A stretch of 64,000 nucleotides of DNA from Ascidiella aspersa (taxonomy: Eukaryota). This document shows positions 11,501-56,924 of the stretch, piece after piece. The number at the start of each line of letters is the position of its first letter. The first letter of the stretch is position 1. The position numbers and the translations under genes are program-made. A model generated the notes under the pieces. The model saw nothing but the letters and a program-made list of their open reading frames with translations, did no database searches and was not told the origin of the DNA. The stretch lies in the NCBI GenBank assembly GCA_963924565.1, contig OZ004609.1, forward strand, positions 29,822,001 through 29,886,000, given 5' to 3'.

Positions 11501-14500
11501 GTGGCTGAAAATAAATTTGACTTTATTTTCGGTGTTGCGCGCTACGAAGGTAGTAAGTTCTTTGCATATGTTCATCGATGTTTTTCCAATAAACGGGAGC
11601 TTCATTGTGATGGTATACAACGGTTTGTTTTCTTCATGCTCTACCATTTTGTTTTGCACGTCCTTGTGTTTTTGGTCAAGAAACCTGTAAATGGCAGTAT
11701 CAATAAACTGCTTGGGGTACCCATTCATCATCAACATTTTTGAAATATTGCGAAATTCATGGTGCATCCCCATGTAAGTGTTACAAATTCTGTAAGCCCG
11801 GTGTAATAGGCTATTTATCAGGTTGCGCTTGTATTTAAATGGCACAAAACTTGACCATCTTGTTAGGAGGCCTGTATGGGTAGGCTTGCGATATACGTGA
11901 GTGCTGTGTCCATTAGGCATTTTCTTAACCAGTACATCCAGAAAGGGCAGATTATTATCCTTTTCCCACTCACAGGTAAACTGGATATTTGGATGGATGC
12001 CATTTAGAGTGCAGAGAAAAGCCTCAATTTCATCACTGTTGTAGAATACGGCAAAAATGTCATCTACATAGCGGCATAAAAGATGGGGTTGTGCTGGGTT
12101 TTCCACGGTTTGATCAATTAACCAGTTCATGAAAACATCAGCAAGCAGAGGGGCGATCGGGGAACCCATTGCGACGCCGTCGATCTGTGTGTAAAATTTT
12201 TGCCTGAATTGAAAAGTGATGTCATTGCAGGTCCAATTTAACATTTTCTTGAACTCAGATTTCTTGAGTCCATGAAACAGCTTAACACCTTCCTTGTATA
12301 TGTTGTTGAGAATCAGGTTGGTGGTAAATTCAACTGGAATGTTAGTGAACAGGCTTTTTACATCGTAAGATACCATGACCTTGTCATACAGTTGTGTGTG
12401 GTTAACACGGTTCACAAAATCAAAGGTATCTTTTATATTGGTGGGATGTGCGCGCAGTGGTTGTAGAACTTCACACAGCCATTCGGCACAGTCATAGCAG
12501 AAACATCCACGCGAGTCTAGAATAGGTCGAAGTGGTACGTTGACCTTATGTACTTTAGGAACGCCATACAGTGTAGGGGTACGGGCAGCGGTTGGTCTAA
12601 TTCTGTATGGGCTTTGATATTCTTATTACGTCTTACTACAACCTCCAACCATTATGCTCCAATGTTTATTATAAGTTTTTTGTTGTTTAAATATATAAAT
12701 GCCTATAATTGTTTTAATTTGTGAGCATATCTACTTTAAATGTGATTTTTTGTGCAGTCAATCAGTTATATATACATAGCATATTTTTCAGCATCTTTTA
12801 ACGCTACATTGTAAAATGGAAATCAGTTAAATCACAGCCTACTTTAAAATGTCATAAAGTGCAGTGGACACGTTCTAGTCTCCGCCAGCCACGTTTTGCG
12901 ATTTAGAAAACTTTAAATTAAATTTTCTCTCCTTCCATGTCAACATTTCAAATTGTGATGTTGTTTTAATTCTTGTTGTTTAATGTTAAACAGAATAAAG
13001 GATTGTGCTGACAATTCAGGAAAACTTGGTTTATTTATTTTAATGTTATAAAAACAAAACATACTTCAGTTTCTGCATTTTGGTGAAAGTATTCCCTATT
13101 CACATCGGATTTTGCCATGTCATCTTTAACGCCAAGAGCATAATCCCTGGTTTGAACCGGCAAACCTAGAAACCAAAATTAGGCATTAACATAGTGTAAG
13201 TTGTGGATTAACACATAAAATAGTAATGTTTAAAGGGTAAAACAGTCAAAAAAGTGGATAAGTGAAAATGCAGACTTTCTTAATATTGCAAGTTTTTACT
13301 AATCTTTAACATTTTAGTTTTTTACATGTATTCACTTAGCCATAGAGCAATGTTTAAAGCGTAGAGCAGTCAATAAAAATACTGAAAATCAAGCAAGTTT
13401 GGGAAACAAGCAGTTAATAAAAGTATACTGTGCTTTCTTACCTAAATCGCAAAAAAATTAGGACTGGGAAACATTTGCAAATTGTTATTTATCTATACAA
13501 ATAAATACAGGACAATGAGGACATATTTACCATACTCCAGATCAAGCAGACAAGTCTGACAAATGTTCTTCAGCTTTGAGCAAGTTTGACAGACCTCGGT
13601 TTTCTTGAAACGCATCCTAGCACCAGGACACCATCTGAACACTGTGAAGGGCCGGTCGCAGATTTTACATTCCTTACCGAACTTTTCTTTTGTCTAAGAA
13701 AATCATAAGTTAGATTAAATATCTTAGTCATCAAAAAGATAAAAATAAAACCAATTGCTTGCAACATATTTTCAAGGCACACAAAGAATGAATAAAAAAC
13801 ACAAAAATGACAAGCTAAAAGAGACATGCAACATTTTTTAAAAACTGTAACAGGACAAACATTGCGAAACTCTGAATGCCTAAATAGATATGATGTCCGT
13901 AAGTCAGAGTATAATTCAGTTGGATTTACAATGTGCAGTGCCGAAATTTAGAATGCGCACATGCAACAGGGAATGTATAAGCAAAAATAGTGAACAACAA
14001 AATTTTAGTTTTTTAACCTCAAAACCAGGGCTGCGGAGTCGGAGTTGGACATGGGACTTAACAGAGTTGGTTTGTTTTGCTGCAATCGGACTCGGGACTC
14101 AAGTAAGACCACGTAAACTACCCGAGTTCTGAGTCAAACTTTTGAAACTAATATTACCGAAAAATGATAATTTCTAAAGTGGCAAATATTTTTCAACCAT
14201 GTATTGTGAATTTGTGAGTGAATGAATTTTATGACACCCCCTAAAAGTAGATTGCTGAATATTTACCTATTTAGTTCCGTTAATTGGCGGAATACAGGCT
14301 GGAGAGTCTGAGCCTGGCTCAGGGCTCTCAACGAAATCGCAATATTGTCGGAGTCGGACTCGGGTTTATTTTTTTGGCCAGAGTAGAACTCAGGAGTGGA
14401 ACCCGGGTTATTTTTAACTGACCCTGCAGCCCTTCTCTTAACACTTACTTTTCTATTTTGTTGTAGGATATAATGACATACATGTTATATATCTCAAGAG

Positions 14501-16608: not shown

Positions 16609-17049
16609 CTATAATGGCTGATGTCTGAGTTCTTTTTCAAATTGTTCAGCAGTAAAAGTGCCGTCCAGCTTTTCATAGTTTTTGTTGAAAACCGAATATG
16701 CACTCATCTCTTGCTTTTCTCGTCGTTTTGTAGACGTACTTAAATACATAAAAAGAAATCCAGAGGCGATGACAAAAACAATTCCAAACTGTAACTCCAC
16801 AAACAAAAGAAACAAGAGAACCCACAGGATGATTTTTAAAATAGTTGGTGAACCAATAATGGGAATTTGTTTTAGTTTTTCTGCAACAAATACGAAAAAG
16901 CGACTTTGTGTTATTTGGTGCAACCATCTTGAAAGAAGAGTAAATACAGCATTTGTTCGTTTGACTGTGCTTGGTCTTGAAAAGTTTTTGCTGTTACTTG
17001 AGAGCTCAGCTTTTTTCCTTGCACGATACTCTGCCAAACCTTGCTCCAT
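16609..17049 (-). CDS. SAYSD1: SAYSvFN domain-containing protein 1, intronless CDS, 146 aa
   Basis: Starts MEQGLAEYRARKK; hydrophobic hairpin ILWVLLFLLFVELQFGIVFVIASGFLFMY; signature EMSAYSVFNKNYEKLDGTFTAEQFEKEL; acceptor TTTTCAG 17 nt upstream of the ATG. Confidence 0.95.
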   Translation of the reverse strand: MEQGLAEYRARKKAELSSNSKNFSRPSTVKRTNAVFTLLSRWLHQITQSRFFVFVAEKLKQIPIIGSPTILKIILWVLLFLLFVELQFGIVFVIASGFLFMYLSTSTKRREKQEMSAYSVFNKNYEKLDGTFTAEQFEKELRHQPL

Positions 17050-17913
17050 TATTCCAATAGAATTTTCTGAAAATATTATTTGAGGTTCACTTGACTTTCG
17101 CAAGTAATTTAATATTGACTAGAGTTATTTTACAAACAACTTGATTGATACTTATGTCATTAAAATGATTTGTTTAAAACACCTTGATTAGAAACACAGA
17201 TTACTAAATGCTACTAGTATAAGTGGTCTTGATGTTTCTTTGCAACATTAAAAAAATAAACAAAATTTGTCACTAACATATCTTTTGTTTATTTTTGAAA
17301 TATTGTTACTTTACACTCAGACTTTCTGTAGTGGTATTAGTAATGGATTTGGCCAATATTAAAATCTGATATAGTGCAAACAATACTAGTTATTTGTATG
17401 GGCATAAAGTACAATAGATTTGACTTGTTAATTTGGAATAAAATTAGTATTTTGAACCACATAATAACTTTACAATTGTAAGAAAATGCACATACTTACA
17501 AATAGCTTGATGTGTATCTAATAAATCTCTTTTCTTGTAATCAAATCAAAACTTTTGACGACCGAATGACGCTATATTTAAACAAATAAATTGCGGTGAT
17601 AAAATCTAATTAAAAATACTAATTAGTTACAATTTAAACAACTGTCTGGTTACAGCGGTTTGTATTGTTGCTGTTATTCTTTGTGATTCGTTGCCGTATC
17701 CCGATTTGGCACCAAACCAAAAAAGCGTTTACAGGTATAATCAACTTAATTGCTTTGGAATGGGTTTAAATAACGTTTTTAAACTCTAAAATGTTATACC
17801 ATATTGTTTTGGTTAAAAAAAACATTATTGGTCTGTCACAGTTGACCGCGATCAGCTGACGTATGTTCAACGAGCCGTGACGCATTTTTGCATGCTGAAA
17901 AAAAAAATCAAGG
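17050..17913. promoter_or_regulatory. Probable bidirectional promoter region between SAYSD1 and NATD1
   Basis: Head-to-head start codons ~860 bp apart; local CpG cluster ~17550-17900 with TGACG motifs and a CAGCTG. Confidence 0.5.
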
Positions 17914-33696: not shown

Positions 33697-36600
33697 TCAA
33701 GCTCTTCTCTTTACAATCAGCTCGAAGGCGGGCGGTCGAAGACTGACCATGCTCACACCCTGCATATCGATGTTGCCCTGTCCGGGAGCCAGTGTGAAGT
33801 CGAACCTCCTTAAGAGCGAGGCAGCCACGGTGAAGAGCTGCATCTTGGCAAGCTGCTGGCCGAGACAGCTTCGAGACCCGACGCTGAACATCATCACATT
33901 GGATGACTTGACGAAGGAACCGTGGGAGTCCAGGTGGCGCTCCGGGCGGAAGACATCCGACTCTGGCCAGAGCTTCTCGTCGTGGTGGATTCCGAAGATG
34001 TTGGTGAGAAACATGGCTCCTTTGGGGATGGTATATCCCATCAGGGTGTCGCTCCTAGAAGCCTGATGCGGCACCGACAGAGGTACTGGAGGCCGGATTC
34101 GCAAGGTTTCCTATATTGTATGGATTAGCAGTGTTATACATTAGCGATCGTATGAACGGTGGTTTAATTAGGAAAATATACAACGAGAATGCTGATTTTG
34201 TCTAAAACCATCCGCGTTAAAATAAAAAAACGCTGAATACAATCTGGACCATTGTGAAAAAGCAATACCCCGTTTAAAGGCTTTGGAAATTAGTTTGATT
34301 GATTCAAACTCGGACCAAGGCCTTTAATACAAAATGTTGGAATCTTTATCACAAATTGTAAAAATATTTGACTGAAATTAGCATTGCAAGAACGTCATTT
34401 GCTATTTGAACCAAGCAGAAGAATCCATGGTATATGAAATTCAAACTCCTCGAGACTTCCATTAATAAACAATAGAAGTAAACCGGAAGCTCATTTGAAT
34501 TGCATTCTGCACAACTCAATGCAACTTTCCTAGTATTCTTAAACTAAATACTTTGTTGCTGTTGAAATTCAGCCTAGCAGATTTCGTACCGGTACTAATT
34601 TACCACTATCCTAAAACTTAGTGCTCCTTTTTGTGGTAGAAGTCAAGTTAATAAATCCGGTATTTCGGATTTGGGAAGGGATAAATTCGACCGGTTGTTC
34701 TTAACATGTTGCTTATGTCAACTAACGGTGTAATTTGACAATTTTAAAGAGGTTATTTTGGCAATGATGCGAAATGCATCTATCACGACTAAAACAAATA
34801 TACCCGTAGTTCACCTTTTGAAATTTATAGGTTTATTTAAATACAAGTCATTATGAGAGGTATTATTGATGAACTTTAGAGGTATTACTGATTAATTAAT
34901 AAGGTTTTATTTTTTTTTATTTACAAAAAGCGAATTTCCATTAAAAAACGTTCTGTTGGGGGGTGATGGCCGAGTCTAAAAAGTTGGGAGGTAAAGGCCG
35001 AATCTAAAACAACTTTAAACCGGAAGCTCATTTGAATTGCATTCTGCACAACTCAATGCAACAAAAACAAATAACAGTAAAACTACCTGAATCACAGCCC
35101 TGAAGTAGGGCACGTTGTCCTGTAGCCGCATCGTGATAAAGCCACTCTGGCCGAAAACGTCATCCAGCTCCTCCTGAACCCTTCTCTGCGCCTCCTGATT
35201 CCGACAGAGGTAGAGGATCATCCAGGTGATGGCGGTGGAGGTTGTGTCCGTAGAGGCCATGAAGAGGTCGCAGACGTAGCTGCTTAATTGCATCCGGGTG
35301 AAGGAGGAGTTTCTCTTCCACGTTGCGGAAGGGTTGTTCTTGGAGTCCTTGAGATCGCCATCTGTGTCTTCCGCATCTTGCTCAACTGCTGAACACGATA
35401 GCTTAAAGGTTTATCATTGCATTGACCACGGCGGAGGTAAAATGCTTGTTATATTGAAACGCAAATAATCACTCATCGATAATTGTATAATAACGTTCCA
35501 AGTTCGTATTCTGTCAAACAAACGAAAAAAATGACTAGGGCAAAATGTCAACAACAACCAAAAGTGTCACGCATTTCACCAGAGCACCAGTATTGAAAAG
35601 CATGCCATAAAATGCTATACAAATAGTAAACTGCATTACAAATTATTGACAGAATATACGCTTCAAATTAAACAAAAGGAGCGACTTGGACCACTAAAGA
35701 CCTAGCAAACACAATCGTAGCCACCTGCATTTTAAGTGTTAAAGCCGATTAAAAGGCGAACAAACTGAACATAAGTTATTCTGGTATTTATTTGTTTGTC
35801 CGACGTTTCGGCTTAATATGGGAACCTCTATCTGGGGAATGCAACACACAACGCCCAACAGAAGAACTTATTTTCGGTATATACTGGTAGCAACAGCATA
35901 ATTTTTTGATTAATTGAAAAAGCCTTGACTTGGACTTAAGTTATTTTACGAATGACTTAAAATGGACTTGTTACAACACTGCCTGTAGCGGTATTTATTT
36001 TGCTTCCCAAATCTTATCTGGTCGAATGTCACTCTAGAAATCGATGTACCGCCAACGGTCAGATAGGCTAAGGCTTGCAAGATAACAGCGGCCCATTACA
36101 CGCCATGCCAAGCGTACAAATATTTCTCAACTTACTGGAGGGTGACTCCCGTCCGGCGCGCTCAATCTCATCTAGAAAGCAGTCGATGAAGTCACGTGGA
36201 TCGCCGGGATGCCGGGTCCGCACGTGATCCTCAATCTCCACCTCCACCAGGGCGTTTAACTCGTCACGGAAGCGCGAAGAATCGCGGACGATACTCCGGA
36301 AGAACGGGAGCACGCGGAGGAAGGGAGCAACCATCATGGCACCGACGAGAACGTGAAGTTTACTGGGCTCGACCATCTTGTGCAGCAGGCGACGAAAGCC
36401 CGTCTTCTCGCTGGAAACCTGGTAGCCGAACACCATCTGCGAGATCACGTTCGAAATGGCGTCGTACACCATCGTGTCGATCTTAAACGGTCGCGAGCTG
36501 CCGTCTTCGAGGCAAAGCCCGTCTAGCTTGTCGCACAGCTCGTCTGCAATCTCGACCAGTCGCGGTTCGAGGCTGCGCTTGCCCATGCCGAACTCGCGGA

Positions 36601-37018
36601 GTGCTCCAAGGCCGAAGCGCCGCTGCTCGAGGTGGAAGTCGCCGCATTTGATCATCAAAATACCAAAGCCGCCTTTGAATATCTCCAAAGGTTGAGGGCG
36701 GTCGCCGAAGCTGGTCGACTTCACGTAAGCCTCGTGAGCCGCTTCCGCGCTGCCAATGACGACCACGTCCTTGAGTCCCATCTTGACCATGCACACGGCG
36801 CCGTACTTCTGTGTCCACTTGGCGATCACGCGTTCCGGGTGAGCGCGCAGCGAGGTGACGGCGCCGATCAGGGGGATTCCCCGCTTGCCGGGTGGGCTGC
36901 CTGGGGCGCGCTGGTTCCAGAGAAGCCAGGCGAGGTAGCAGGCCAGGCCGACCAGTATTACGGCGTCGATTGCCGGTTTGGCAAAGACCGCGTAGAACCG
37001 TTCGTTTTCGGTTTGCAT
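33697..37018 (-). CDS. Cytochrome P450, CYP2 clan (paralogue A), 3 exons, ~532 aa
   Basis: Exons 37018-36136, 35388-35087, 34110-33697 (1599 nt); TM anchor + PPGKRGIPLIG, RRFGLGALREFGMGKRSLE, PRDFIDCFL, I-helix ASTDTT, ETLR, FRPERH, heme FSVGSRSCLG. Confidence 0.95.
34479..35062. repeat. Exact 47-bp direct repeat bracketing a 490-bp segment in CYP-A intron 2
   Basis: taaaccggaagctcatttgaattgcattctgcacaactcaatgcaac at 34479-34525 and 35016-35062. Confidence 0.9.
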
Positions 37019-42935: not shown

Positions 42936-45720
42936 GTTTTAAGTAGTAATAACCCTTAACGTACAACATGAAATGAAAAAAAATATCAAAAATATTTGTT
43001 TCATTCGATAATTCCAAATGCAGTTTTATCTAATCGCAGTGACCGACAGTAATGTTCGACAACAGTTAAGGGCCGTACAGAAAATAAGACGTTAATGTCC
43101 CTTAAGTAGCTCGGTGTATTCTGCAACAACTGAAGCGCAAACGGTTTTCAATTATTAACTGAGATTGTCTTAAAGGTGCCCATAGCCCACAGGATTCGCG
43201 GGGAATTCAAACACATGGCCTTGCGTTTGGCCGCAATTACCAAGTGATTAAGGTCCATGCCAAGAGCAAGCAAGTGCAGGACTCTTTTTCTACAGTTGCT
43301 TTCGTTGCAGACTACCGATGCATACCAAGGTGGTTAGAGTCAATATCGCACGTCAGTGCCAACAGAAAATAAAGGCGTGTCCGTGTTTGTCTTTAGTTAC
43401 CAGTGATGTGATTCGCACGCAGCGTCGCTTTGTTGCGGACGCAGCGTCGCTGTGTCAGAATACATGCAGAGGCTAACAGGGCGGGCATTTCACCCGGATT
43501 GCTAAAAAGTGTTCTTTGAAAAGTTTTAAGGACTAAATGTGCTTTTTAGAACGGATTCAAGGTTTGCAAGACGACTCTTTCACGCCGATAACGGTACTAA
43601 AATGTGTGTTTTTCCAATGCTGATTTTAAGCTGAACATCCGTTTGATTTGCTTGGAATTCAATAACTTATATATATTTGAAAAACCCGTAATTATGCAAG
43701 TAAAAGATTCAAACTATTTTACTTTTACGTATTCATTGAAATTTAAATGCTTGTTAACAAGGAAATGGATATTTACAAAGGCTGTTTTAATAATTCTTAT
43801 TGCGGGGCTGCAAATAAGGTCTAAATATCGGCATATTTTATCAGAAGCAGGTGAGTAAGCGATATACAAGTCAAGTTTGAGTAAAGTTTTAACTAATAAT
43901 ACCAAGTCTCTTTTAGTTTGCTTAGGTTTCTTGTCAAATCTTTTTGTATTGTTGTAAGTCGTTTCTTTTTTACTTTTTTTTGCGACACGCGAATTGCCTC
44001 TCGTTGTGCCTTTTCTGTTCCATGTAAGACCATTCGATTACTCTGCGACAGGATTGACCGAAACTTATTGGAGTTTTTAGGATTTGTACAGTGTCAACTT
44101 CGTTGGCTTAAGTTACTGAATACTGAATATTGATGATTTATCGGGGTTTTCAAACTATGCAAGCCCCTATAAATCGATAATATTTGGTAAATTTTAAACC
44201 TATTTTTCTGCACTTTTCTATGTGAGCCCCGGTTTTCACTTCGACTCTTTTGAATGCAAATCCTTAAGAGAATCCTTTTGGTCGCGCTTTAACGTCGTAA
44301 CACTCGTTAAACCTAAAACATTAAACCAGTTTTATTTTGAAGCTTAACGGTTAAATGTTTCGGTTGGACGTATAGTAGAAAACGGTTAAATGTTTTTGGT
44401 TAGACGTAGTAGGAAAATTAAAACACATGTATAGAAGTAGGTAACATTTTAAACCTTTCGAGTGTGTCTTCATTTCGTTTTCAGCATCGAACAATATCTG
44501 GCACGTTATTATTTTATTGTTTTTTTAATCTTCTCTGTATAATGTTTTACGCATAGTGCATTTTTACGTTTCATACTAGTAGTCCGGTGGTTGTAATCCT
44601 CGACCTGTGGTTCCGCCCTACTACAGACGGCTAGGCTCCCTACTACAGACGGCTACCTTTGTTGCCGAAAGGCCAAAGTTAACTAACATTCTACTTCTAT
44701 TTTTAGTTAGTTTCGGTCACTTGTTAGGCGTTTTTCAGATAGTCATGATTTTATACCCGTTATTTGGTAACTTACGTGCATCAATCGTTTGATTCGATTG
44801 CCTAAATGACCAATGGCGAATGTAAAGTCTCGTGAAAGAGAGTTTTGGTCGTGCTCGTGGCTATCACCTTACGGAACGTACAGGACTACGATTTGTATGC
44901 GCTTTCAGCATTGTTTCTCAACCTATGGGTTGCGACCCAAAACTGCGTCGCCGTTTTATGTGATTGGGTTGCCGACTGTAAAGGTTCATAAGGTTAGATT
45001 TATTGAGACTGGTCGAGAACAATGTTTTCTATATAGATGTTTTTTCGGTCGAGATTATTTTTTTTCTCGAAATTTGAGAAAACTGTGGTAGAAATACGGA
45101 GACATGGCTCATATTAATTAAGTTCGCATTTGTATATGCTTTTTATGCTATCTCACTTAATAAGAGTTCAGCCTGGTCGCCAAAGCTTTGCTGTTGTATT
45201 TACATGTAGTAATTGGTTCCTTCCCGGTCTAATTTCCAAGTAATATATTGCCCTGAACGCAAACCGTAAAGGAATTTAGTCCATTTTAAGACCAGACCTT
45301 CTGCCCAGAGTTAAAAATTTACCGTATCTCTTATTTCGTAATATAGAACCTGCTATAATTATTGTTGTGTTTTATCGAAAATCTTTTGTTTCTCAAGTGT
45401 TCTTTGGTGTTTTTTTATATATAGTTTTGTTTCTTCTCAGTACCCGTACCCGTATACATTATACAATCTACCTTCGGGTCTTTCGTCACCCTTCACTTTA
45501 ATTTCTTCGTTTCTTTGTAGTTGTTTTCCAAAATCACTACACAACGTGCAAATAAAATATCTATCTATCTCTCAAAGCAAGGCGTTAGGTCGTCGGTTGT
45601 TTATTTGGTTTCGCAAGAGGTCTGGTCAGGGTCGGGTACCTATATTCATACCAACTTGTGTACTATGAAATGTACACACACATATATGTACGTGTTCTTC
45701 ACAACTGTGATCCATAACTG

Positions 45721-45796
45721 AGTCTGTGTAGTTCACTTGGTAGAGCGACGGTCCCGTTATGACCAGAGATCATGAGTTCAAACCTCACTGCAGGCT
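45721..45796 (+). mobile_element. tRNA-derived SINE head / tRNA pseudogene (copy 2), ~145 bp upstream of the CYP-B ATG
   Basis: AGTCTGTGTAGTTCACTTGGTAGAGCGACGGTCCCGTTATGACCAGAGATCATGAGTTCAAACCTCACTGCAGGCT: cloverleaf-like with stem mismatches, C in place of U33, no adjacent oligo-T terminator. Confidence 0.7.
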
Positions 45797-45941
45797 AGTT
45801 GTGTGATCGACAGATTCGGTTATCCTGCGATGGCTTCCGGTGCAACTTGTGTACTATAACTATATTTTCGTTTTCTTTCAGTTCTTTTAAGTTATTTTAA
45901 TTTCATTTTTTTAAGTTGCAACCCTTTTTCGAAACAACGGC

Positions 45942-48900
45942 ATGCACGTTCTGGTTGATCTTTACCCGCGTCTCTCGTACACCAGCTGGGTGGCGATTGC
46001 CTCCACAGCGCTTTGCCTAATATGGTGGTACATGAACGCCAGTCCCAGGGGCGCGCCGCCGGGGCTCAACGGGCTCCCCTTCCTGGGGGTGATCCCCTAC
46101 ATCCGGTCGTATCCAGAGCGAAAGATGGCCGAGTGGAACCGTCGCTTTGGCGCCGTGTGCCGGGTCAAGTTCGCCACGAGGGATGTTGTACTGCTGGGCA
46201 GCGTCGAAGCAATAAACGAGGCCTTCGCCAAGTCGTCGGACTTTGGCGACCGGCTGCAAAACGGCATCACTGTATTTGACAATGATTTCGGAATGCTGAT
46301 GATCAACGGCGGCGACTTCCACCTTGAGCAGCGGCGCTTCGGCCTTCACACTCTCCGCGAGTTCGGTATGGGCAAGCGCAGCCTCGAACCGCGACTGGTA
46401 GAGATCGCAAACGAGCTGTGCGCGCGCATCGACCGCCTCTGTGACGTCAGCGGTGATGACGTGGCCCGGCCGTTCCCGGTGAACGACATGGTGCTGGAAA
46501 CGGTGGCGGACGTGGTGTCGCAAATCATGTTCGGCCACGAGAGATCGCAGAGCAGCGAGGCTATATGTGTGGTGATGAAGACCCTGACTGACAAGAACAA
46601 GTTCTCGGTGCTTTCGCTCATTACCATGTTCGCGCCCTTCACCAAGCACCTGCCCGTCTTCGACAAGGTGCGAACTTGCTAAACTTGGCTTGATAGGTGA
46701 AAGTGAGGTCTATAAATTACCTGGAGGTGTTTAATGGGGAATATCTCACGCCGGTTAAATGTATTCTTGCCGTTTTTGTAAAATAGATCTGTCGAAAAAA
46801 GTCGAACTCCGTAGAAATCCTAAAGGGAAAAAATGACCTGCATTAAAACATTCCCGCTTTAAAACATATTAAAATTTATTAAGGAGTTGTAAATATTGGT
46901 TGGTGGAAGCACATTTGTTTTCATTTTACAAAACGAACCAAGCGCACAAATCATTGCAGCGCACGGGAATCTTAAAATTTTGCTCTAAATTTATTATAAT
47001 TGCGTTATTCCGTTATTGATTCTACGTAATATCACAGGTTTACGAAGGTGGAATAAAGCTCAATCAATCTGTACAGGATGCCATCCGGAATGAGATAGCC
47101 GTCCACAAGGGGTCGTCAGTGAGTCACGAGTCCCGCGATTTCATCGACAGCTATTTAAAACGAATGGGGAAGGAAAAAAATCGTAAGCAAAATAAATCGA
47201 CTCTTTTATAATGTATGTGTAATGCCTACGTTCCTTTATACTAGTATACTTAAAGGGTCAATATTAACTACCACGTACCGCCAGACCATTGCCGAGGCAA
47301 AAATGCAATTTGTATTTCGTAAAACTAGCTAATATGTCCTAATTATTGAGTAAGATATGTCCTAAAAATATGTCCTAAATATTGAGTCGGTGTCCTAAAT
47401 ATTGAGTATTCCTTTTTATTCCATTTAATTTTAACTACTGATGAATATGGTTAAACTCCCCTTAAACGTTTTAAATAAAACTTGTAATTGAATGGAGGAA
47501 AGTTGGTTTATTTGAACAGTTAGACTAATATTATTCCACTGAGCCTGTGTACATTGGGATGTTGACGTCAACCTACACAACTCTAACTACAATTCTAAAA
47601 TTAAAAAAATTGAATTTTACAGGTCGCAAGCGGCATCAACAACACACCCACCACCACCATAACAACAACAATAACAACAACAATTACCTCGCCGTACCGC
47701 ACAACAACAACAACGGCCACAACAAGCACAAAAACAGCCACAGCGCCAAGAAGCACAAAAAGCACTTCGAGGCCAGCCCGAAGAAACCGCTTGGGCCGAG
47801 TTCGTTCAGCAAAGCTCAGCTGATCCACTTGTCCAAGGATATCTTCATGGCGGCCATGGACACGACCACGATTGCCATCTGCTGGACAATCCTTTACCTG
47901 TCCGAGTACCAGACGGTCCAGGTCAAAGTCCAAGATGAGATCGACCGTGTCCTGGGACCGAGCGGAATGCCCACGATGTCCGTTCTCAATAAGCTCCCCT
48001 ACGTGAGGGCGGTTTTACAGGTAACTTGTTTTTTTTTAAAGCAGAAGTCGCTGATATTTCTAAAGGTCTAGGAAATAGGTTTCAGCCCTCCGATTAAAGC
48101 TCCATTCCGAAACAGTTACATCGCTTTTCATTGTGTTCGTGATTACGGAACCCGCAATTATTTTTGGCAATATTGGCAACATGCGCATGATACCTGTAAC
48201 ATTGTGTAAGTAAATTAACCATAAAAATGAAAAAAAGTTACTGAGCTGTGCACAATTTTACATTTTCTGATAGCTTCTAATTACCGGCTTTTCTGTTTTC
48301 AATTCAATGCCGATTTGGTCGGTGTATGACTTCCATAAGGTTCAAACCACACATGAATCAAATGTGAAGCATACGTACACCAGTTTAGTGCACGCATCAA
48401 CATTTTGTGTTACAGCATAAACAGCAGTGTTTTAAAAACTTAAGTCTAGGTCGTTTTGGTAAAATGACTTGACCTGACTTACGTCTTTTCAACAAATGAC
48501 TTGACTTAGACTAACGTCATTGAGTCAAATGACTTTGGTTGAAATTAACTTTTTATTTATCATTTTTACATAAAACTGAGCTATGTCTATCAAGTTTTGC
48601 ACGTGAAACGATAAGATGCTACACGTTGTTTTTTTGTTATTTTTTGATTAGATATGTTTTATCGTTTTCATTTTCATATTTGTGGTTTAACTTGGAGATG
48701 ACTTACTCTAGTAATAACATTTTTATATTAGTGGTTTAACTTGGAGATGACTTACTCTAGTAATAACATTTTTATATTAGTGGTTTAACTTGGGAGATGA
48801 CTTACTCTAGTAATAACATTTTTATATTAGTGGTTTAACTTGGAGATGACTTACTCTAGTAATAATTTTACTGGACTCACTCGGACTTAACTTGGGTAAC

Positions 48901-49464
48901 TGATTACTTGGACTGGGACTTGACTTGTTATTTTTTTTAAAGACTTGACTTGACTTGGACTTGGACTTGAAGTTATTTCACATATGACTTGACTGCAACT
49001 TAAATTCATTTCAAAATAAGCAGTATACAATATCAATACGTTTAAACGTCCAGGAAGTCTTGCGAATCCGGCCTCCAGTTCCCTTGGGCCTACCGCACGT
49101 CGCCTCACGGGACTCTACACTCATGGGATATCGACTCAAAAAAGGCACTATCCTGCTGCCCAACATCTGGGCGGTCCACCACGACGCTGACATCTGGCCG
49201 GAACCGGACCGCTTCAACCCGGAACGGCACCTGGACGGCACCAGCGGGGAGTTCGTCAAGTCGACCAACGTGATCCCCTTTAGCATTGGGTCACGTAGTT
49301 GCTTGGGTCAACAGCTTGCCAACATGGAGCACTTCATCCAGACCGTTTGTCTCTTCCGTCGTTTCCACTTTCGAGTGGCGCCCGGCCAGAAGGTGGACAT
49401 GGAGGGTGAGAGCGTGGTCACCCTCAGGCCCTACGCCTACCCCCTTGTGGTTACTCGACGTTAA
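45942..49464 (+). CDS. Cytochrome P450, CYP2 clan (paralogue B), 4 exons, ~559 aa
   Basis: Exons 45942-46667, 47038-47182, 47623-48020, 49054-49464 (1680 nt); PPGLNGLPFLG, RRFGLHTLREFGMGKRSLE, SRDFIDSYL, AAMDTT, EVLR, FNPERH, heme FSIGSRSCLG. Confidence 0.95.
48425..49000. mobile_element. GACTT-repeat MITE in CYP-B intron 3
   Basis: Arrays of GACTTGACTT(G) at both ends; related right-end fragment ...ggacttgttacaacactg at ~35920-35981. Confidence 0.55.
48682..48865. repeat. 49-bp minisatellite, ~3.7 copies
   Basis: Unit gtggtttaacttggagatgacttactctagtaataacatttttatatta starting at 48682, 48731, 48780 (+1 G) and 48830 (partial). Confidence 0.95.
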
Positions 49465-51207: not shown

Positions 51208-54200
51208 ATGAGTTTTGGTCGCGGCACAGCATCACCTGAAGCTAGGGCAAGGTTTGTTTATTAAATAGGAAAATACTTTTATGTAAATGTATAGCTGTAT
51301 GACTGATCTGCATTCTGTGGCAGGGGTAGGCCCGAGATATTTTAGAAAGCAATTTGTGCGCACAACTTAATTAGTAAGTTGCACACCTAAATTCTAAAAA
51401 CAAGGTTGAATTGTGCTACATTCCTGAACCCCAGGTGTGAAAAAAAAAAAAAAACTTTGATTGCATATCAAAATATTGAAACAAAACATTTTGATGTGTC
51501 TGATGTTTTTTATAATTTAATCATATGTATTTGTAGACAAGCACAAACTGATTTCATTGAAGAATCAGTGCACAAAGTTGACAAGCACTTTGGGTTGATT
51601 TGCAACGAGCTCGGATCTGTGTGTCGAAAAACTGGAAGATTGAGAGACAAATATGACAGTGTGGCTAAGGTAAGTTGAAGTTTGTACATGATTTTTAAAT
51701 GTCCAGTTGTTTCGAGGTTTCTTATGGCATTAGAATATTTTTTGATTTTGTTTAACATGACAATAAAATTGTTTTGTTGATTTGTTTGATTGTACACTAA
51801 TGTTGTATACATTTATTTCAGCTGTGCATTGACTATGCTGATAAGGAACCAGATCCACTAAAGACCAGTCTAACACAGTTTGCTGAACACCTGTCTGCAA
51901 TACAAGACTACAGACAAGCCCAAGTTAGTGGATGTAGTTGCTAAAATTGCAATGTTTGTATTGCTCCAGAGCATTTGAAAGAAACGATCAATTGTTCTGT
52001 TGGAATAAATATCCTTTTTGGAAATAGTACATGTCAGCAAAAAAACCTATTACAATTTTAATTAAACAACTCCTATAATGTTTTTGTTTTATTATAATTG
52101 CCACCCATTGTCATTGTCACAGTGACTGTTTTATGCTTTTACAAAGTATCCATTCAATTAATTATGCTGTTTTTATTGAACCGATTGACAATGTGCTTTG
52201 TTCTCCAGATTGAGCGTCTGGAAAGAAAGGTCATTGATCCTTTGACAACTTATGGCAAAGAGTGTAAGCACACTCAGGTATGTTTACTTTAAATAAGCAC
52301 TGCTTTTGACAATACTTTGATGCTGGAAGTGGATTTGTTCAGTATACATGCCCAAACATATGTTGGTATATATTTAGTAAGGCGACATATTTGCTCCTCA
52401 AACGAAGTGAAAGTCATAGAACACATTTGTTTGCATTACGATATTGACAAACGGCAAGTTACTTTGATCTGACATATGATTTTGATTCAGTTTGAAGTAA
52501 TAGCACAACATACAATAACGTTACCTCTTTGAAAATAAGAAACATGATCGATTTTTTACTAACGATTAAAACGCATTATTTTGCTTTGCATTGGGCCAAA
52601 CGAATTTGTGTTGTTCCAGAGCAACTTGAGAAATTCGCTAAAAACTCGAACCAAAGAACTCAAGCAGCAAGATAGAGTTGAGACCTTGAGGCAAAAGTCT
52701 GGAGATCGGCACACACTGGTTGGTATAGACAATTTTTCGCATCTTCGAGAAATATATTTTTCAGGCCCAAACAGGCAGCTTTTAATGTTTTTTCTTATAG
52801 TCGTAGTAGCCGCTACTACTGCCATTCTGAAGTTTGAAACTTCGAAAAAAAGCAACTAAAGTGTTTACTTAAAAGTTAATGGGAAAAAAATGTGTTGAAC
52901 CGCAAATATGGTAATACGCCTACAGTACGGTAATATAGTACCTTGGTTTATGAAATAAAGCGTACTTGTGTATGATGAAACGAAGGTTGAAACTCGGGTT
53001 TCTATATTGAGCTCAGTAAATCCGAATACGCTATAACGCACACGATACAATCCGCTGAAAGGGCATACGCAACAACAATACGTTAATCCTTTTCGTTCAC
53101 CACTAGTTCAATCGATGCCACTTTTAAATCATAGCCTCGGGCAGAGATGCCACCTGCCGTTGGCACATTTAGGTTTTCGTTTTAGCTAAATGTCCCTTTG
53201 CCTAATGTATATGCGATGAGATCAATAGTGGTTGTTATATGTAAAATAAAGTTTGTCGTGCATTTTCACTAGGATAAAATATTTTAATGTAACCCCGCAA
53301 GGAGAATGGTCCATAAACTATCGTTAAGTAATGTGCTATGCCTGTAGTCCTATTTGGCGTCATTTGTACTCAAGGGATATCGAGTTTCCAGAAAAATTGC
53401 AAACCAGTTTTGTAATCCCGAGGGGCTAAAACGAAAGTGTTTTCGACGAGCGCGCTTCTTCTATGTACAGCGAAACAACAATGCCTCTGAAGGGTTGCCA
53501 ATAAACATAAAATGGATTGAGACCTTGATTCTGTTTGAGTTTTTGAGAAAGAAATTTTCGCCCGGTGCGCTTTTAATTTTAATTCATTTTTTGCTATTTG
53601 AAAACGACATTCTCTAAAGTTTTTACATGTGATTTTAAAATGTCTTACAAGCACAAACGATGAATATCTATCGGTACAAGGACGCCATTCTAAGTTTCAG
53701 CTAAACTTAGCCTATGATATCTTTCTGGTTTGATCAATATTAAAGAAACAATGCCATTTTTATTACGAAACCACAAAAATCTCTTTGTAACAAGCACGCC
53801 TATATTTTTAATCTAATCATAGAGTCCAACCCGCAAAACAGTTTTTCACTTTAAAAAGTCATTTGTCCAGCAAAAAGAGTAAATACCCAAGTTTTTTTTT
53901 TTAATGTAGATGTAACATTATTCACGTGTTTCACTTTTTAAACCGCAAATCTGACGTTCCAACGATTGTTTCGTCACAATGTTTTTCACGCGCGCAGACA
54001 CAAGCGGAAGCGGAACTCCAGCGTCGCTCAGTGGACGTCGAACGCACGACCCGAGCTTTGGAAGAGACGATCGACAAGTTTGAGGCAAAAAAGGTTCAGG
54101 ACTTGAAGGTAAAAACAAACAGAACGCTAACTCGGGCCCTACCTACATGGCGGCACCTGCCCCCTGGTGGAGACAGGTTGTCAACGATTGGGCTCAGACA

Positions 54201-56924
54201 TTACTGGCTTGTTAGAAATTCCCGGCCTTCTTCTTTGCCAGCGGGAATAACCCAGCCACAATGCTTGCCTTCTTTACTTTATTTTTACACTAAAAAAACA
54301 ACGCCCGTTGTTTTTAGAATATTTTCCCTTCCGTGCTCACCAAAAAATCGTAACGTCCTCTCTTTAGAATGTCTTGTTTACAACACTGGGGTTCCGCGGA
54401 CAGTTTTAGGAGGTTTCCAGTGACCCGTGCATATATTTTAAATACATCTTTCAAATGCTTGCACAAAGCAACTGTTTTTTTTGTAGTAAATATTGTTGGG
54501 TTAGTTTTACTTTTTAACTTTTTTTTAACAATTTTTATGTTAAAATGCCGCCATGATTTTAATTAAGCAAAGATCTCCTGTCGTCTTAACAAAATTCTAG
54601 AACTAAATTCTACAGCCAAGGCAGATAGGCACAGAAAGTCGAACCTTACACATTTTTGTCCTTCGTTACTTAACGTTTCAAGCTCACGTTGAACCTAATA
54701 CTTTTTCGTAAAACAGAAAATCTTTTCGGAGTTCATTAAGATCGAGATGGTGTTCCACGCCAAAGCTCTCGAGCAATACACGGTAGCCTACAACTCGCTG
54801 CAGGAAATACAAGAGGAAGAGCACATCGAGGTTGGTGACGTCACTGCTATGACGTAATTGTCTGAAAGCGCTTTTCTGTACTGGTTGTACTATTCTATTA
54901 ATCTTAAAACATGGCCTGTAAAACGTCCACCATTCTACGTTCAAAGTAATAGTAAAAGCTTATTACTCATTATTTGAAAAGGCGGGCACGGCCTTTATAA
55001 AATTTGTGTAAGCGGACGCAGCCGAAAAAGTTTAAGAACCCCTGTATAAGACGATATTTTTCCAGGTTTGTGTCTGGTTTAAGCGTACGTTAATTGTGCA
55101 GAACCTTTTTTTATAATAGCTATGTTAATATAAAATCACAAGTACAATAAGAATGCCGATTTTTGGAAAATAACTTAACATTTTTCCATCCTAAACTTCA
55201 TGACTCTTGATATTTGTTAGTAATCTTAATAACTATCTACGTCACCGCGGATAGAGTGTGTTGTAGTTCGAATTCCACAGTTTTTCTGCTAAACAGGTTG
55301 GTGGTAATTAGTTTCTTTTTGACCTTAGGTGTTTCGAAACAATTTGCGTCCCAGCACCAACATGCAAAACCGGATGGAACTGGCCAACCAAGCCACCGGG
55401 CGCTCATTGGCCGATTCGACGAGGATGTCGACCAATCAGACGCCGCCGCAGCCTGTCGCAAAGGCTCGCGGTCAAAGACATCAGCAAGAGTAAGTGCTTA
55501 GGATTTAAACTGTTTTTTCACAGTGTAAAAGTTGTAAACAGTAAGTGACTTGTTTGCCAGTCACAATTAGGCAGGACCTGTGTACGACGTAGTGATTTCA
55601 TTAGTCCACTGACTAATATTAGTTAAATAGTTCGACGTCAAGTTAACAAATATATATGTTTAAAAACGTTTAATTTTTTAGTAATTACTATTATCAGTTA
55701 AGAAATCTTATCGTGCGTTAAAAATCATAACCATCGCCCTTCCTGCATGCTGCGCCGACTATTCTCCAATTCTTTGGCGTTATTGCAATTAGGCGTGTTT
55801 AAGTCCCATGTGCTGAATTGTAGCAAGAAATGTTCAATATTTTCGCAGATCGGAGGTTGATGAAGATGAGGACGATGACGAGGAATACGCCACCGACTCA
55901 CAGGAATATGACGAGGACGAAGAAAGCGAAGAGGTGGGTTTAGGAGTCGGGGATCGCGATGGTGGCTAGGGATACATTTGCGGTGTAATGGTGGATTTGT
56001 ATCGGCGTTATTTTTTACATTTGTTTGAGTAACAATTTTGCTAGTTCATTCTTTCGTTGCAAAGAGGTTTCTAACCCGAAGGATGATATGATATAGTCTT
56101 TGTAACTTTCCTGACACTGTGTAAGACCCTATATCTAATTAAGGTAACCAAACATATTTGTATCGCAATATGCAACATGCAATGTTACTTTTTAACTTTA
56201 CAAGTGCTATATCCTTTGAAATAACTGATGTAGGCCAATGCGTACGCTTAAAAGCGGAAGTTACGCTTTATTTTCCTAAAATTAAAAGGCGGAAGTTACA
56301 AATCTATGCTTTGTGTTTACCTTTTACTATCGCCTACCGCAGTTTCATAGCTATGTATACAAACAATTGATATAGAAAACCTTATCAATGCACTAGCCAG
56401 TTAATTTACCTTTTTCAACTGTTACGTTACTGTGATGTAAAACATTGTTGCATTAAAAAAAGGCACAGAAGTTAAGTATCATTTCAAAAATGCATTACAT
56501 TACGCGAAGCAGAGAATAGCGTCCTATTAGTGGTCTTGGTGTGACTATAGGTTTTTTGGTTTGGAAGGACGTTTTTTCATGAGGGTTTCCAAAAAATTTG
56601 GTTGTAATCCATTTACCAATACATTTAAGCAACAAAGTCTGGCCGAGTCAAATACGCCCTTAAATAGCGAAGTGAAAATATAACCACAAATTGGGCTTTT
56701 ACTACAGTCTGATCGAAAACGACAATAACGTAGATTGCAGTTCCAAAATAATTGATGGTGTAGCGCTAGTGCATTCGTAAAACTTAGCCTTTGAACTCAG
56801 CAATGCAGACAAAATATCATTAAGACATCGTTACAATTTCCGGTTTTGCGTTAAGGAGGAAGATGAAGATGAGGAGATCGCACAACGTCCTGCATCCAAC
56901 AGAGCAAGAACAAAGCCCTGGTGA
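51208..56924 (+). CDS. CIBAR1: FAM92/CIBAR (CBY1-interacting BAR domain) protein, 9-10 exons, 317 or 328 aa
   Basis: Exons 51208-51251, 51537-51669, 51822-51923, 52209-52277, 52620-52718, 53998-54108, 54717-54830, 55329-55489, 55849-55933 (or read-through to TAG at 55969), 56856-56924. Motifs VDKHFG...RKTGRLRDK, IQDYRQAQIERLERKVIDPL, QAEAELQR, KIFSEFIKIEMVFHAKALE, EVFRN, acidic tail. Confidence 0.93.

What the first reader, a model, noticed from the sequence alone, without database searches (positions are those of the whole stretch)
47623..47800. P450 with a ~60-aa His/Asn/Lys-rich low-complexity insertion in the H-I loop
Seen: after DFIDSYLKRM the spliced frame reads GKEKNRRKRHQQHTHHHHNNNNNNNNYLAVPHNNNNGHNKHKNSHSAKKHKKHFEASPKKPLGP (64 aa, 12 His, 15 Asn) before SSF and helix I, partly built from CAC/AAC triplets, with no stop. 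Known: this loop is about 10 aa in typical CYP2 enzymes. Inference: a disordered surface module that could bind metal, sense pH, drive clustering or control turnover. This would be unusual for a microsomal P450.
Basis: partly seen in the sequence, partly recalled or inferred. Interest (0 to 1): 0.7.

Follow-up and report, generated by a model that had tools for sequence, protein, structure and literature searches.

The report
Sea-squirt P450 with overgrown floppy loop
A sea-squirt cytochrome P450 gene is transcribed with a 64-residue histidine/asparagine/lysine-rich stretch in one loop of the enzyme; related sea-squirt enzymes also have long loops there but with few or no histidines, so the stretch is likely a tolerated repeat expansion in a predicted floppy surface loop rather than a dedicated metal sensor.

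Summary
A four-exon, 559-aa, stop-free clan-2 P450 (gene A, 45942-49464 +) carries a 64-aa insert (12 His, 15 Asn, 11 Lys) between helices H and I. Stranded RNA reads cover the exons and the insert, and 3 reads run from exon 2 into the insert exon. Typical loops are about 9 aa, but 8 other genes of the same tunicate clade (two paralogues here, Ciona, Clavelina) have 31-48-aa loops, mostly acidic, with 0-2 His, all ending in a W-x(2-3)-[ST]SF motif that gene A has lost. The insert holds AAC/CAC runs and a 27-nt tandem duplication. It is polymorphic: in-frame +9 and +12 alleles, and a His-to-Gln change. Gene A is also the fastest-evolving clade member. Best reading: an ancestrally long, disordered loop, expanded by slippage under weak constraint (0.65). 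A cationic tether (0.17) or a metal/pH module (0.12) is not excluded, because the probable Phallusia orthologue is a fragment that ends before the loop. I found no paper on the clade's long loop. Modest interest.

The parts
45942..46667 (+). Gene A exon 1 (aa 1-242): hydrophobic N-terminal anchor, PPG hinge, helices A-F; C-helix motif reads HxxxR instead of WxxxR
   Evidence: Pfam p450 E 1.3e-18; RNA reads
46668..47037 (+). Intron 1, 370 nt, phase 0; absent from paralogues B and C
   Evidence: 4 RNA reads join across it, GT..AG
47038..47182 (+). Gene A exon 2: helices G and H and the first 5 residues of the insert (47167-47182)
   Evidence: RNA depth 5.6-8.4
47183..47622 (+). Intron 2, 440 nt, phase 1, inside the H-I loop; B and C have a phase-1 intron in the same loop
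   Evidence: 3 RNA loose ends match the start of exon 3
47623..47798 (+). His/Asn/Lys-rich part of the H-I loop (the finding); the 64-aa insert has computed pI 10.9, charge +12 at pH 7.4 and +18 at pH 6
   Evidence: no secondary structure over residues 1-62 of the exon in a low-confidence model; in-frame +9 and +12 alleles
47699..47761 (+). 27-nt (9-codon) tandem duplication inside the insert, 2.3 copies; units 1 and 2 agree at 20 of 27 bases
47799..48020 (+). Rest of exon 3: helix I (oxygen-binding motif reads AAMDTT; Gly replaced by Ala), helices J and K
   Evidence: Pfam p450 E 1.9e-18; CYP2R1 best solved match E 9e-12
49054..49464 (+). Gene A exon 4: ExxR, meander, heme-binding Cys motif (FxxGxRxCxG), stop
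   Evidence: Pfam p450 E 3.6e-40
33697..37018 (-). Paralogue B, 531 aa, three exons (37018-36136, 35385 or 35388-35087, 34110-33697), divergent from gene A; 36-aa acidic H-I loop with no His

Best explanation
Gene A is a transcribed, spliced, intact ascidian clan-2 cytochrome P450 whose H-I loop, already long in its tunicate relatives, likely grew to 64 residues by triplet slippage and a 27-nt duplication, and is likely tolerated as a predicted disordered surface loop with no specific job for its histidines. Shown: gene structure, transcription of the insert, long loops across the clade, differing loop composition, allelic length change. Inferred: the ancestor of the Ciona/Clavelina/this-species clade had a 30-50-aa loop closed by a Trp motif. 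In the gene A lineage constraint loosened across the protein, the Trp was lost, and A/C-rich codon runs (AAC, CAC, AAG) expanded at the 5' end of exon 3. The frame is kept because the mutations come in triplets and frameshifts would remove the heme domain. The enzyme would sit in the ER membrane by its N-terminal helix and oxidise a lipophilic substrate (unknown), with the loop waving in the cytosol. Weak, unselected metal binding by the His run is expected from chemistry alone.
For: (1) Loop length, counted from 9 residues after the helix-H DFID anchor to 14 before the I-helix Asp: A 65; B 36; C 34; Ciona 48, 36, 31; Clavelina 42, 36, 32; against a median of 9 (range 8-21) in 98 anchored outsiders and 5 in six single-frame P450s of the same genome. 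These nine genes fall in one 11-row clade (support 98/98). (2) His in those 8 loops is 0-2 against 12, and acidic residues equal or outnumber basic ones in all 8. (3) 8 of 8 end in W-x(2-3)-[ST]SF; A does not. (4) A departs at 18 of 121 columns invariant in the other 8, against 3-8 of 106-111 for each of the others; its branch is 0.76 against 0.31 and 0.35 for B and C. (5) Other individuals carry +9 (3 of 5 reads, X7) and +12 (one contig, X1) in-frame insertions and P316T, N320S and H335Q. Variant sites: 5 in 194 nt of insert, 4 in 457 nt of P450 core, 17 in 890 nt of intron. (6) A 27-nt tandem unit and AAC/CAC runs lie in the insert, and AAC runs are common in the genome (411 overlapping matches). 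(7) An AlphaFold model of the Ciona relative puts residues 288-325 at pLDDT below 50 between helices H and I of an otherwise ordinary CYP2 fold (mean 78.6; best match CYP2R1, E 6e-30). (8) The H-I loop is the part most often unmodelled in CYP3A4 structures (PMC13622003, one passage), and low-complexity tracts show raised length and point polymorphism in Plasmodium (PMC3140889, abstract).
Against: The excess of variants in the insert over the core is not significant (Fisher p = 0.14). The five insert variants may be one haplotype, and N320S may be an alignment effect of the neighbouring indel. The core also has amino-acid differences (I91M, N260K, N478D, E540K). 11 of 12 His survive in the other allele, and the five His nearest the splice site lie in the masked stretch, so their variation is unseen. 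Third-position GC of the insert (0.77) equals that of the rest of the gene (0.75), not the intron (0.31), and the runs are interrupted by synonymous codons, which suggests an old coding tract rather than a fresh microsatellite. Gene A has a probable orthologue in Phallusia (63% over 206 query residues), so the lineage is old, and its loop could not be seen. The switch from acidic to strongly basic (+12) is not explained by slippage alone. Two clade members (P0006, P0029) have short loops of 12 and 10 aa, so the long loop may not be ancestral to the whole clade.
Confidence: 0.65

Rival explanations
1. Selected polycationic tether. As gene A diverged in function, its loop switched from acidic to basic and now acts by charge, not by sequence: it binds acidic phospholipids, the acidic reductase or cytochrome b5, RNA, or other P450 molecules, and so tunes electron delivery or clustering.
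For: The insert raises the computed charge of the protein from +3.6 to +16 at pH 7.4, while all 8 related long loops are neutral to acidic. Gene A changed at many conserved sites at the same time. H-I loops form contacts between aromatase chains in crystals (PMC3288111, passages). The Ciona 48-aa loop also opens with a Lys/Arg run. That the reductase and b5 docking faces are acidic is recalled knowledge.
Against: Length and residues vary within the species. Lys/Asn/His/Gln richness is what A/C-rich triplet slippage yields. No orthologous loop was available to show that the charge is kept.
Confidence: 0.17
2. Metal-binding or pH-sensing module: the 12 His, with Lys, bind Zn, Cu, Ni or vanadyl, or titrate near pH 6-7, and regulate the enzyme.
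For: 12 His in 64 aa, charge +12 to +18 between pH 7.4 and 6. The His4-Asn4 pattern is unique in the genome. The genome has 2 vanabin-family matches over the Pfam cut-off; that ascidiids accumulate vanadium is recalled.
Against: His is 0-2 in all 8 related long loops. One His is replaced by Gln in another allele. There is no Cys and no regular His spacing. The His codons lie in CAC runs next to AAC runs, one base change apart.
Confidence: 0.12
3. Artefact or dispensable sequence: the insert is mis-assembled, is spliced out of the main transcript (an in-frame AG at 47813-47814 would remove it), or gene A is a decaying pseudogene.
For: An in-frame AG exists at 47814. RNA depth drops to 0.08 over 47756-47807. 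Gene A has lost many conserved residues. Only 23 RNA reads were laid.
Against: 3 of 3 listed loose-end reads use the 47622 acceptor and 6 reads cover the insert; no joint to 47815 is listed (listing needs 3 reads). That acceptor would also delete the conserved start of helix I. Two DNA runs and a contig hold the tract in frame. There is no stop, and heme Cys, ExxR and the Asp-Thr pair are intact. A probable orthologue exists in another genus.
Confidence: 0.05

Closest known systems
Ciona intestinalis 'cytochrome P450 2D15-like' XP_002124426 (P0002) with P0026 and P0027; Clavelina lepadiformis 'P450 2J4/2U1-like' (P0005, P0007, P0028)
   Same: Same tunicate clan-2 clade (98/98); about 41-43% identity to gene A for P0002, P0005 and P0007; HxxQRRF C-helix motif (in 5 of these 6) and long H-I loop of 31-48 aa
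   Different: Their loops are neutral to acidic, hold 0-2 His and end in a Trp motif; gene A's is 65 aa by the same count, basic, with 12 His and no Trp; A, B and C also replace the I-helix Gly by Ala or Ser
Phallusia mammillata 'cytochrome P450 2D28-like' CAB3235494.1 (P0140)
   Same: Best hit among 1.84 billion representatives, 63% identical over query residues 4-209; probable orthologue
   Different: A 213-aa fragment that stops before helix G, so its loop is unknown
Vertebrate CYP2 enzymes (CYP2R1, 2D6, 2A6, 2U1)
   Same: Best solved-structure matches by sequence and fold; N-terminal anchor and proline hinge; heme motif
   Different: About 28% identity over the whole length to a fish CYP2; H-I loop about 9 aa; AGxxT and WxxxR motifs canonical
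Insect CYP4G enzymes with a family-specific low-complexity insertion
   Same: A lineage-specific charged insertion of about 34 residues in a P450 surface loop (PMC4957221, passages)
   Different: Asp/Glu-rich, placed between helices F and G (PMC1761136, passage), clan 4, and conserved across the subfamily
Aromatase (CYP19) loop insertions in amphioxus and pufferfish
   Same: Lineage-specific insertions modelled as unstructured loops and judged dispensable by the authors (PMC7827799, passages)
   Different: Other positions (6 aa near helix H; a long one between K'' and L); not described as His-rich in the passages seen

Membership tests
Cytochrome P450 superfamily (PF00067) | Profile match over the curated cut-off | tested here: met
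   3 of 4 exons score 67-139 bits against a cut-off of 22.8; the 48-aa exon 2 has no match
Cytochrome P450 superfamily (PF00067) | Heme motif FxxGxRxCxG, K-helix ExxR, meander | tested here: met
   Present at aa 499, 424 and 477; consensus as in Table 2 of PMC8537429 (passage)
Cytochrome P450 superfamily (PF00067) | I-helix [AG]G-x-[DE]T[TS] | tested here: inconclusive
   Asp-Thr pair kept, but Gly is Ala in A and Ser in B and C; 94 of 108 other proteins read AG and 14 gave no match to the pattern
Cytochrome P450 superfamily (PF00067) | C-helix WxxxR | tested here: not met
   Reads HxxxR (aa 127); His also in 9 of the other 10 members of the 11-row clade, so a clade trait and not decay
Cytochrome P450 superfamily (PF00067) | Heme binding and monooxygenase activity | not testable with these tools
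   Needs expression and a CO difference spectrum
CYP2 family in the strict naming sense | More than 40% identity to a named CYP2 (rule recalled) | tested here: not met
   28% over 522 columns to fish CYP2 P0010; about 41% only over the C-terminal 210 aa to CYP2U1. Clan-2-like, in a tunicate-only clade
Tunicate long-H-I-loop clan-2 clade (defined here) | Placement in the clade by tree | tested here: met
   A groups with B and C (95/89) inside an 11-row clade (98/98)
Tunicate long-H-I-loop clan-2 clade (defined here) | Loop of 30 aa or more | tested here: met
   65 aa; 9 of 11 clade rows have 31-65 aa
Tunicate long-H-I-loop clan-2 clade (defined here) | W-x(2-3)-[ST]SF at the end of the loop | tested here: not met
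   Present in 8 of 8 other long loops, absent in A
His-rich metal-binding loops | His content conserved among relatives | tested here: inconclusive
   Not conserved in 8 paralogous loops; one His varies within the species; the orthologue's loop is not on record
His-rich metal-binding loops | Measured metal binding with a functional effect | not testable with these tools
   Bench work

The most novel reading that the evidence does not exclude
In ascidiid sea squirts one P450 lineage turned the clade's acidic, Trp-anchored H-I loop into a selected His/Lys-rich polycationic arm that binds metal ions (possibly vanadyl) or protons and so couples an ER monooxygenase to the cell's metal or pH state. 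It would be a microsomal P450 with a built-in sensor loop.
Probability: 0.12. Interest if true: 0.65.

Novelty: new variant of a known kind. Interest (0 to 1): 0.28.

Why it matters
If the best reading holds, this is a clean small example of how a tolerant enzyme loop absorbs repeat expansion. It also flags an apparently undescribed tunicate P450 subclade with a 30-50-aa H-I loop, a Trp cap and an altered C-helix motif, which gene models can clip (one database entry, 94% identical to XP_002124426, lacks the loop). The clade offers a natural loop-swap series (acidic B and C, basic A) for asking what an H-I loop does to reductase coupling. If the metal-sensor reading were true, it would be a new way to regulate a microsomal P450.

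Tried and rejected
Homologue search with exon 1 among longer proteins: none of 1878 candidates passed E 1e-10 (crowding, no evidence). Scan of metagenome contigs with an exon-1 alignment: 1 of 416 candidate stretches, a 27%-identical unrelated P450. The ESM Atlas gave no result. The sequencing-run search listed no RNA holder; the raw RNA run added by species label did hold the gene. Run X3 (another organism label) gave only near-identical short pieces, no orthologue. The fold of exon 3 alone is low-confidence throughout (mean pLDDT 50.7) and is only weak support for disorder. Exonisation by a shifted 3' splice site: no in-frame AG lies between 47622 and 47814, so there is no relic acceptor; not favoured, not excluded. 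A link to the Ciona chromosome-5 introgressed P450 repeat (PMC11291672, passages): no identifier connects it; dropped. PMC8537429 does not mention XP_002124426 in its main text. Earlier findings of this scan: nothing in 3 look-ups. No complex prediction was run, since no specific binding is claimed. Of 151 further proteins, 41 could be anchored by pattern; their longest apparent loops (33, 25, 19) include mis-anchored cases and none has more than 2 His among the ten longest. Rows left out of the tree: fragments under 400 aa, near-duplicates (P0003, P0016-P0020, P0030) and most vertebrate hits; 31 rows were used.

Full report
Observation. The finding lies in exon 3 of a four-exon cytochrome P450 gene on the + strand (gene A: 45942-46667, 47038-47182, 47623-48020, 49054-49464). 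Joined at GT..AG introns, the exons give 559 residues without a stop. Residues 286-349 are the quoted 64-aa peptide with 12 His, 15 Asn and 11 Lys. Three of four exons match Pfam p450 above the cut-off. The heme Cys motif, ExxR, the meander and the Asp-Thr pair are intact. The window lies on contig C3 of a 308.6-Mb genome. The closest named relatives are from Phallusia, Ciona, Clavelina and Styela, and the genome has two vanabin-family matches against 0 of 14 control genomes, so the animal is an ascidian tunicate.

Is it transcribed? RNA run X8 (about 6 in 100 of the run read) gave 23 reads on 46560-48100, all on one strand and confined to exons. Four reads join intron 1. Three reads leave exon 2 with loose ends whose first 11 letters are those of 47625-47635, the start of the insert exon; the tool masks the repeat beyond (47634-47689). 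Six reads cover 47697 and 47710, four cover 47729 and three cover 47753 with the window's letters. Depth over 47756-47807 is 0.08, so continuity into helix I is not shown on one read. One contig of run X2 spans the tract with no gap in it. The only other in-frame acceptor, at 47814, would delete the start of helix I, and no joint to it is listed. The tract is real and in the transcript; a minor skipping form cannot be excluded at this depth.

What the relatives show. The genome holds two close paralogues among 109 P450 exon matches: B in this window (minus strand, 37018-33697) and C on contig C4. Both have a phase-1 intron in the same loop. Measured the same way, the H-I loop is 65 aa in A, 36 in B, 34 in C, 48, 36 and 31 in three Ciona intestinalis proteins, and 42, 36 and 32 in three Clavelina proteins. 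It has a median of 9 (72 of 98 are 9, range 8-21) in the 98 of 100 outside proteins that could be anchored, and is 5 in six single-frame P450s on contig C2. In a 31-row tree these nine genes and two more form one clade (98/98), with A beside B and C (95/89). The two others, P0006 and P0029, have short loops (12 and 10 aa), and the Styela sister group has 13, 13 and 24. P0006 and P0029 are uncharacterised database models, and a similar entry (P0003) that is 94% identical to P0002 lacks the loop and the start of helix I, so gene models can clip it; whether these two short loops are real is open. The eight other long loops hold 0-2 His, are neutral to acidic, and all end in W-x(2-3)-[ST]SF, which A lacks. 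So the long loop is a clade trait, and its His/Lys content is special to gene A. The excess over relatives is 17-34 residues, not 55.

Structure. An AlphaFold model of the Ciona member (19-row alignment, mean pLDDT 78.6) has helix H at 270-288, helix I at 330-361 and pLDDT below 50 over 288-325. It matches CYP2R1 and CYP2D6 structures (E 6e-30). A model of gene A's exon 3 alone shows no secondary structure before helix I but is weak overall (50.7). The H-I loop is the part most often unmodelled in CYP3A4 structures (PMC13622003, one passage) and has high B-factors in CYP2C19 (PMC6770661, one passage). It is a natural place for tolerated insertions (inference).

How the insert grew. It is built of CAC and AAC runs (10 of 12 His and 12 of 15 Asn codons) and a 27-nt unit in 2.3 copies. 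(AAC)7-type runs give 411 overlapping matches in the genome. Of 19 distinct places examined (the first 30 loci, overlaps removed), 7 lie in a frame open for 100 codons or more, so such tracts are ordinary here. Other individuals differ: +9 nt in 3 of 5 reads of X7, +12 nt in one X1 contig, and P316T, N320S and H335Q. Variant sites number 5 in 194 nt of insert, 4 in 457 nt of core and 17 in 890 nt of intron; insert against core p = 0.14, not significant (the 194-nt window is two bases wider than the insert and 56 nt of it were masked). In-frame lengths are expected from triplet slippage and say little about selection. Raised polymorphism in low-complexity tracts is reported for Plasmodium (PMC3140889, abstract only). 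Gene A is unusual throughout: it departs at 18 of 121 columns invariant in the other eight, against 3-8 of 106-111 for each of them, and has the longest branch in the clade (0.76). That fits loosened constraint or a change of function.

Against the neutral reading. Third-position GC in the insert (0.77) matches the coding sequence (0.75) and not intron 2 (0.31). The runs are broken by synonymous codons. 11 of 12 His persist in the second allele, and the first five are hidden by the mask. The His4-Asn4 pattern is unique in the genome. The insert lifts the computed charge of the protein from +3.6 to +16. A search of 1.84 billion representatives found one much closer protein, a Phallusia mammillata fragment 63% identical over residues 4-209. 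Gene A is thus an old lineage, and the one comparison that would decide the question, its orthologue's loop, is missing because the fragment ends at 213 aa.

Mechanism and rivals. Most likely (0.65): an ER-anchored monooxygenase of unknown substrate (inferred from the N-terminal hydrophobic stretch, proline hinge and clan-2 fold) with an inherited flexible loop that expanded by slippage and is tolerated. A charge-based tether to lipid, reductase, b5 or other P450s (0.17) is plausible from the acidic-to-basic switch; H-I loops make inter-chain contacts in aromatase crystals (PMC3288111, passages). A specific metal or pH module (0.12) rests on composition alone. An artefact, a skipped insert or a pseudogene (0.05) is largely excluded by reads.

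Comparison with what is known. Lineage-specific loop insertions in P450s are known: the acidic 34-aa CYP4G insertion (PMC4957221 and PMC1761136, passages) and aromatase insertions (PMC7827799, passages). Nine searches of the held library showed no title or abstract start on a long or His-rich H-I loop in tunicate P450s. I saw listings only for most hits, read passages of nine papers and one abstract, and opened no supplements; subscription journals and P450 naming databases are not covered, so absence from print is not established. Gene A works like a microsomal clan-2 P450. It is not a CYP2 by the recalled 40% rule (28% to a fish CYP2) and departs from the WxxxR and AGxxT motifs.

Verdict. 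A real and expressed feature, a new variant of a known kind. The clade-wide long loop with a Trp cap is the more solid novelty; the His-rich version in gene A is most likely its overgrown form. Interest 0.28.

Noticed in passing
window 33697-37018 (-) and 45942-49464 (+): Paralogues A and B form a divergent pair about 8.9 kb apart, 44% identical; B is closer (61%) to paralogue C on contig C4. B's second exon has two adjacent possible acceptors (35388 and 35385).
   Followed up: yes
window 47850-47867; paralogues B and C (L015): All three paralogues replace the conserved I-helix Gly of the oxygen-binding motif by Ala or Ser, while 94 of 108 comparison proteins read AG and 14 gave no match. This could affect oxygen activation or substrate fit.
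   Followed up: partly
window 46668-47037: Gene A has an intron that B and C lack; the Phallusia fragment ends elsewhere, so gain or loss is unresolved.
   Followed up: partly
window 46214, 47091, 49216, 49402: At four coding sites the runs that cover them mostly or wholly show another letter than the window (I91M, N260K, N478D, E540K): private alleles or assembly errors.
   Followed up: partly
window 45718-45802: High-copy short repeat just upstream of gene A (DNA depth about 100 times the gene); looks like a tRNA-derived SINE by eye, but ARAGORN finds no tRNA in the window.
   Followed up: no
window 48450-48960: High-copy repeat in intron 3, enclosing a 49-bp tandem array of 4 copies at 48669-48865.
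   Followed up: no
window 11219-12622 (-): 467-aa open frame with a reverse-transcriptase domain (PF00078, E 1.6e-9), probably a retroelement.
   Followed up: no
window 16609-17118 (-); 51391-54423 (+): Neighbouring genes: a SAYSvFN-domain exon and FAM92-family exons.
   Followed up: no
G000:C3:25475213-25489114: Two vanabin-family (PF11437) matches about 4.4 Mb from the window.
   Followed up: no
L018, L019 (G000:C2:32.84-32.86 Mb): Cluster of six single-frame clan-2 P450 reading frames with unusually short H-I loops (5 aa); two frames are shorter or lack the heme motif within the frame.
   Followed up: partly
L002 (G000:C6:32961083-32964139): The only other DNA match to the insert is a CAA/CAG run in a gene that looks like a hairy/Hes bHLH gene ending in WRPW (label recalled from motifs, not tested).
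   Followed up: no
P0003 against P0002: UniRef H2XKK3 is 94% identical to XP_002124426 but lacks the long loop and the start of helix I, probably a clipped gene model.
   Followed up: partly
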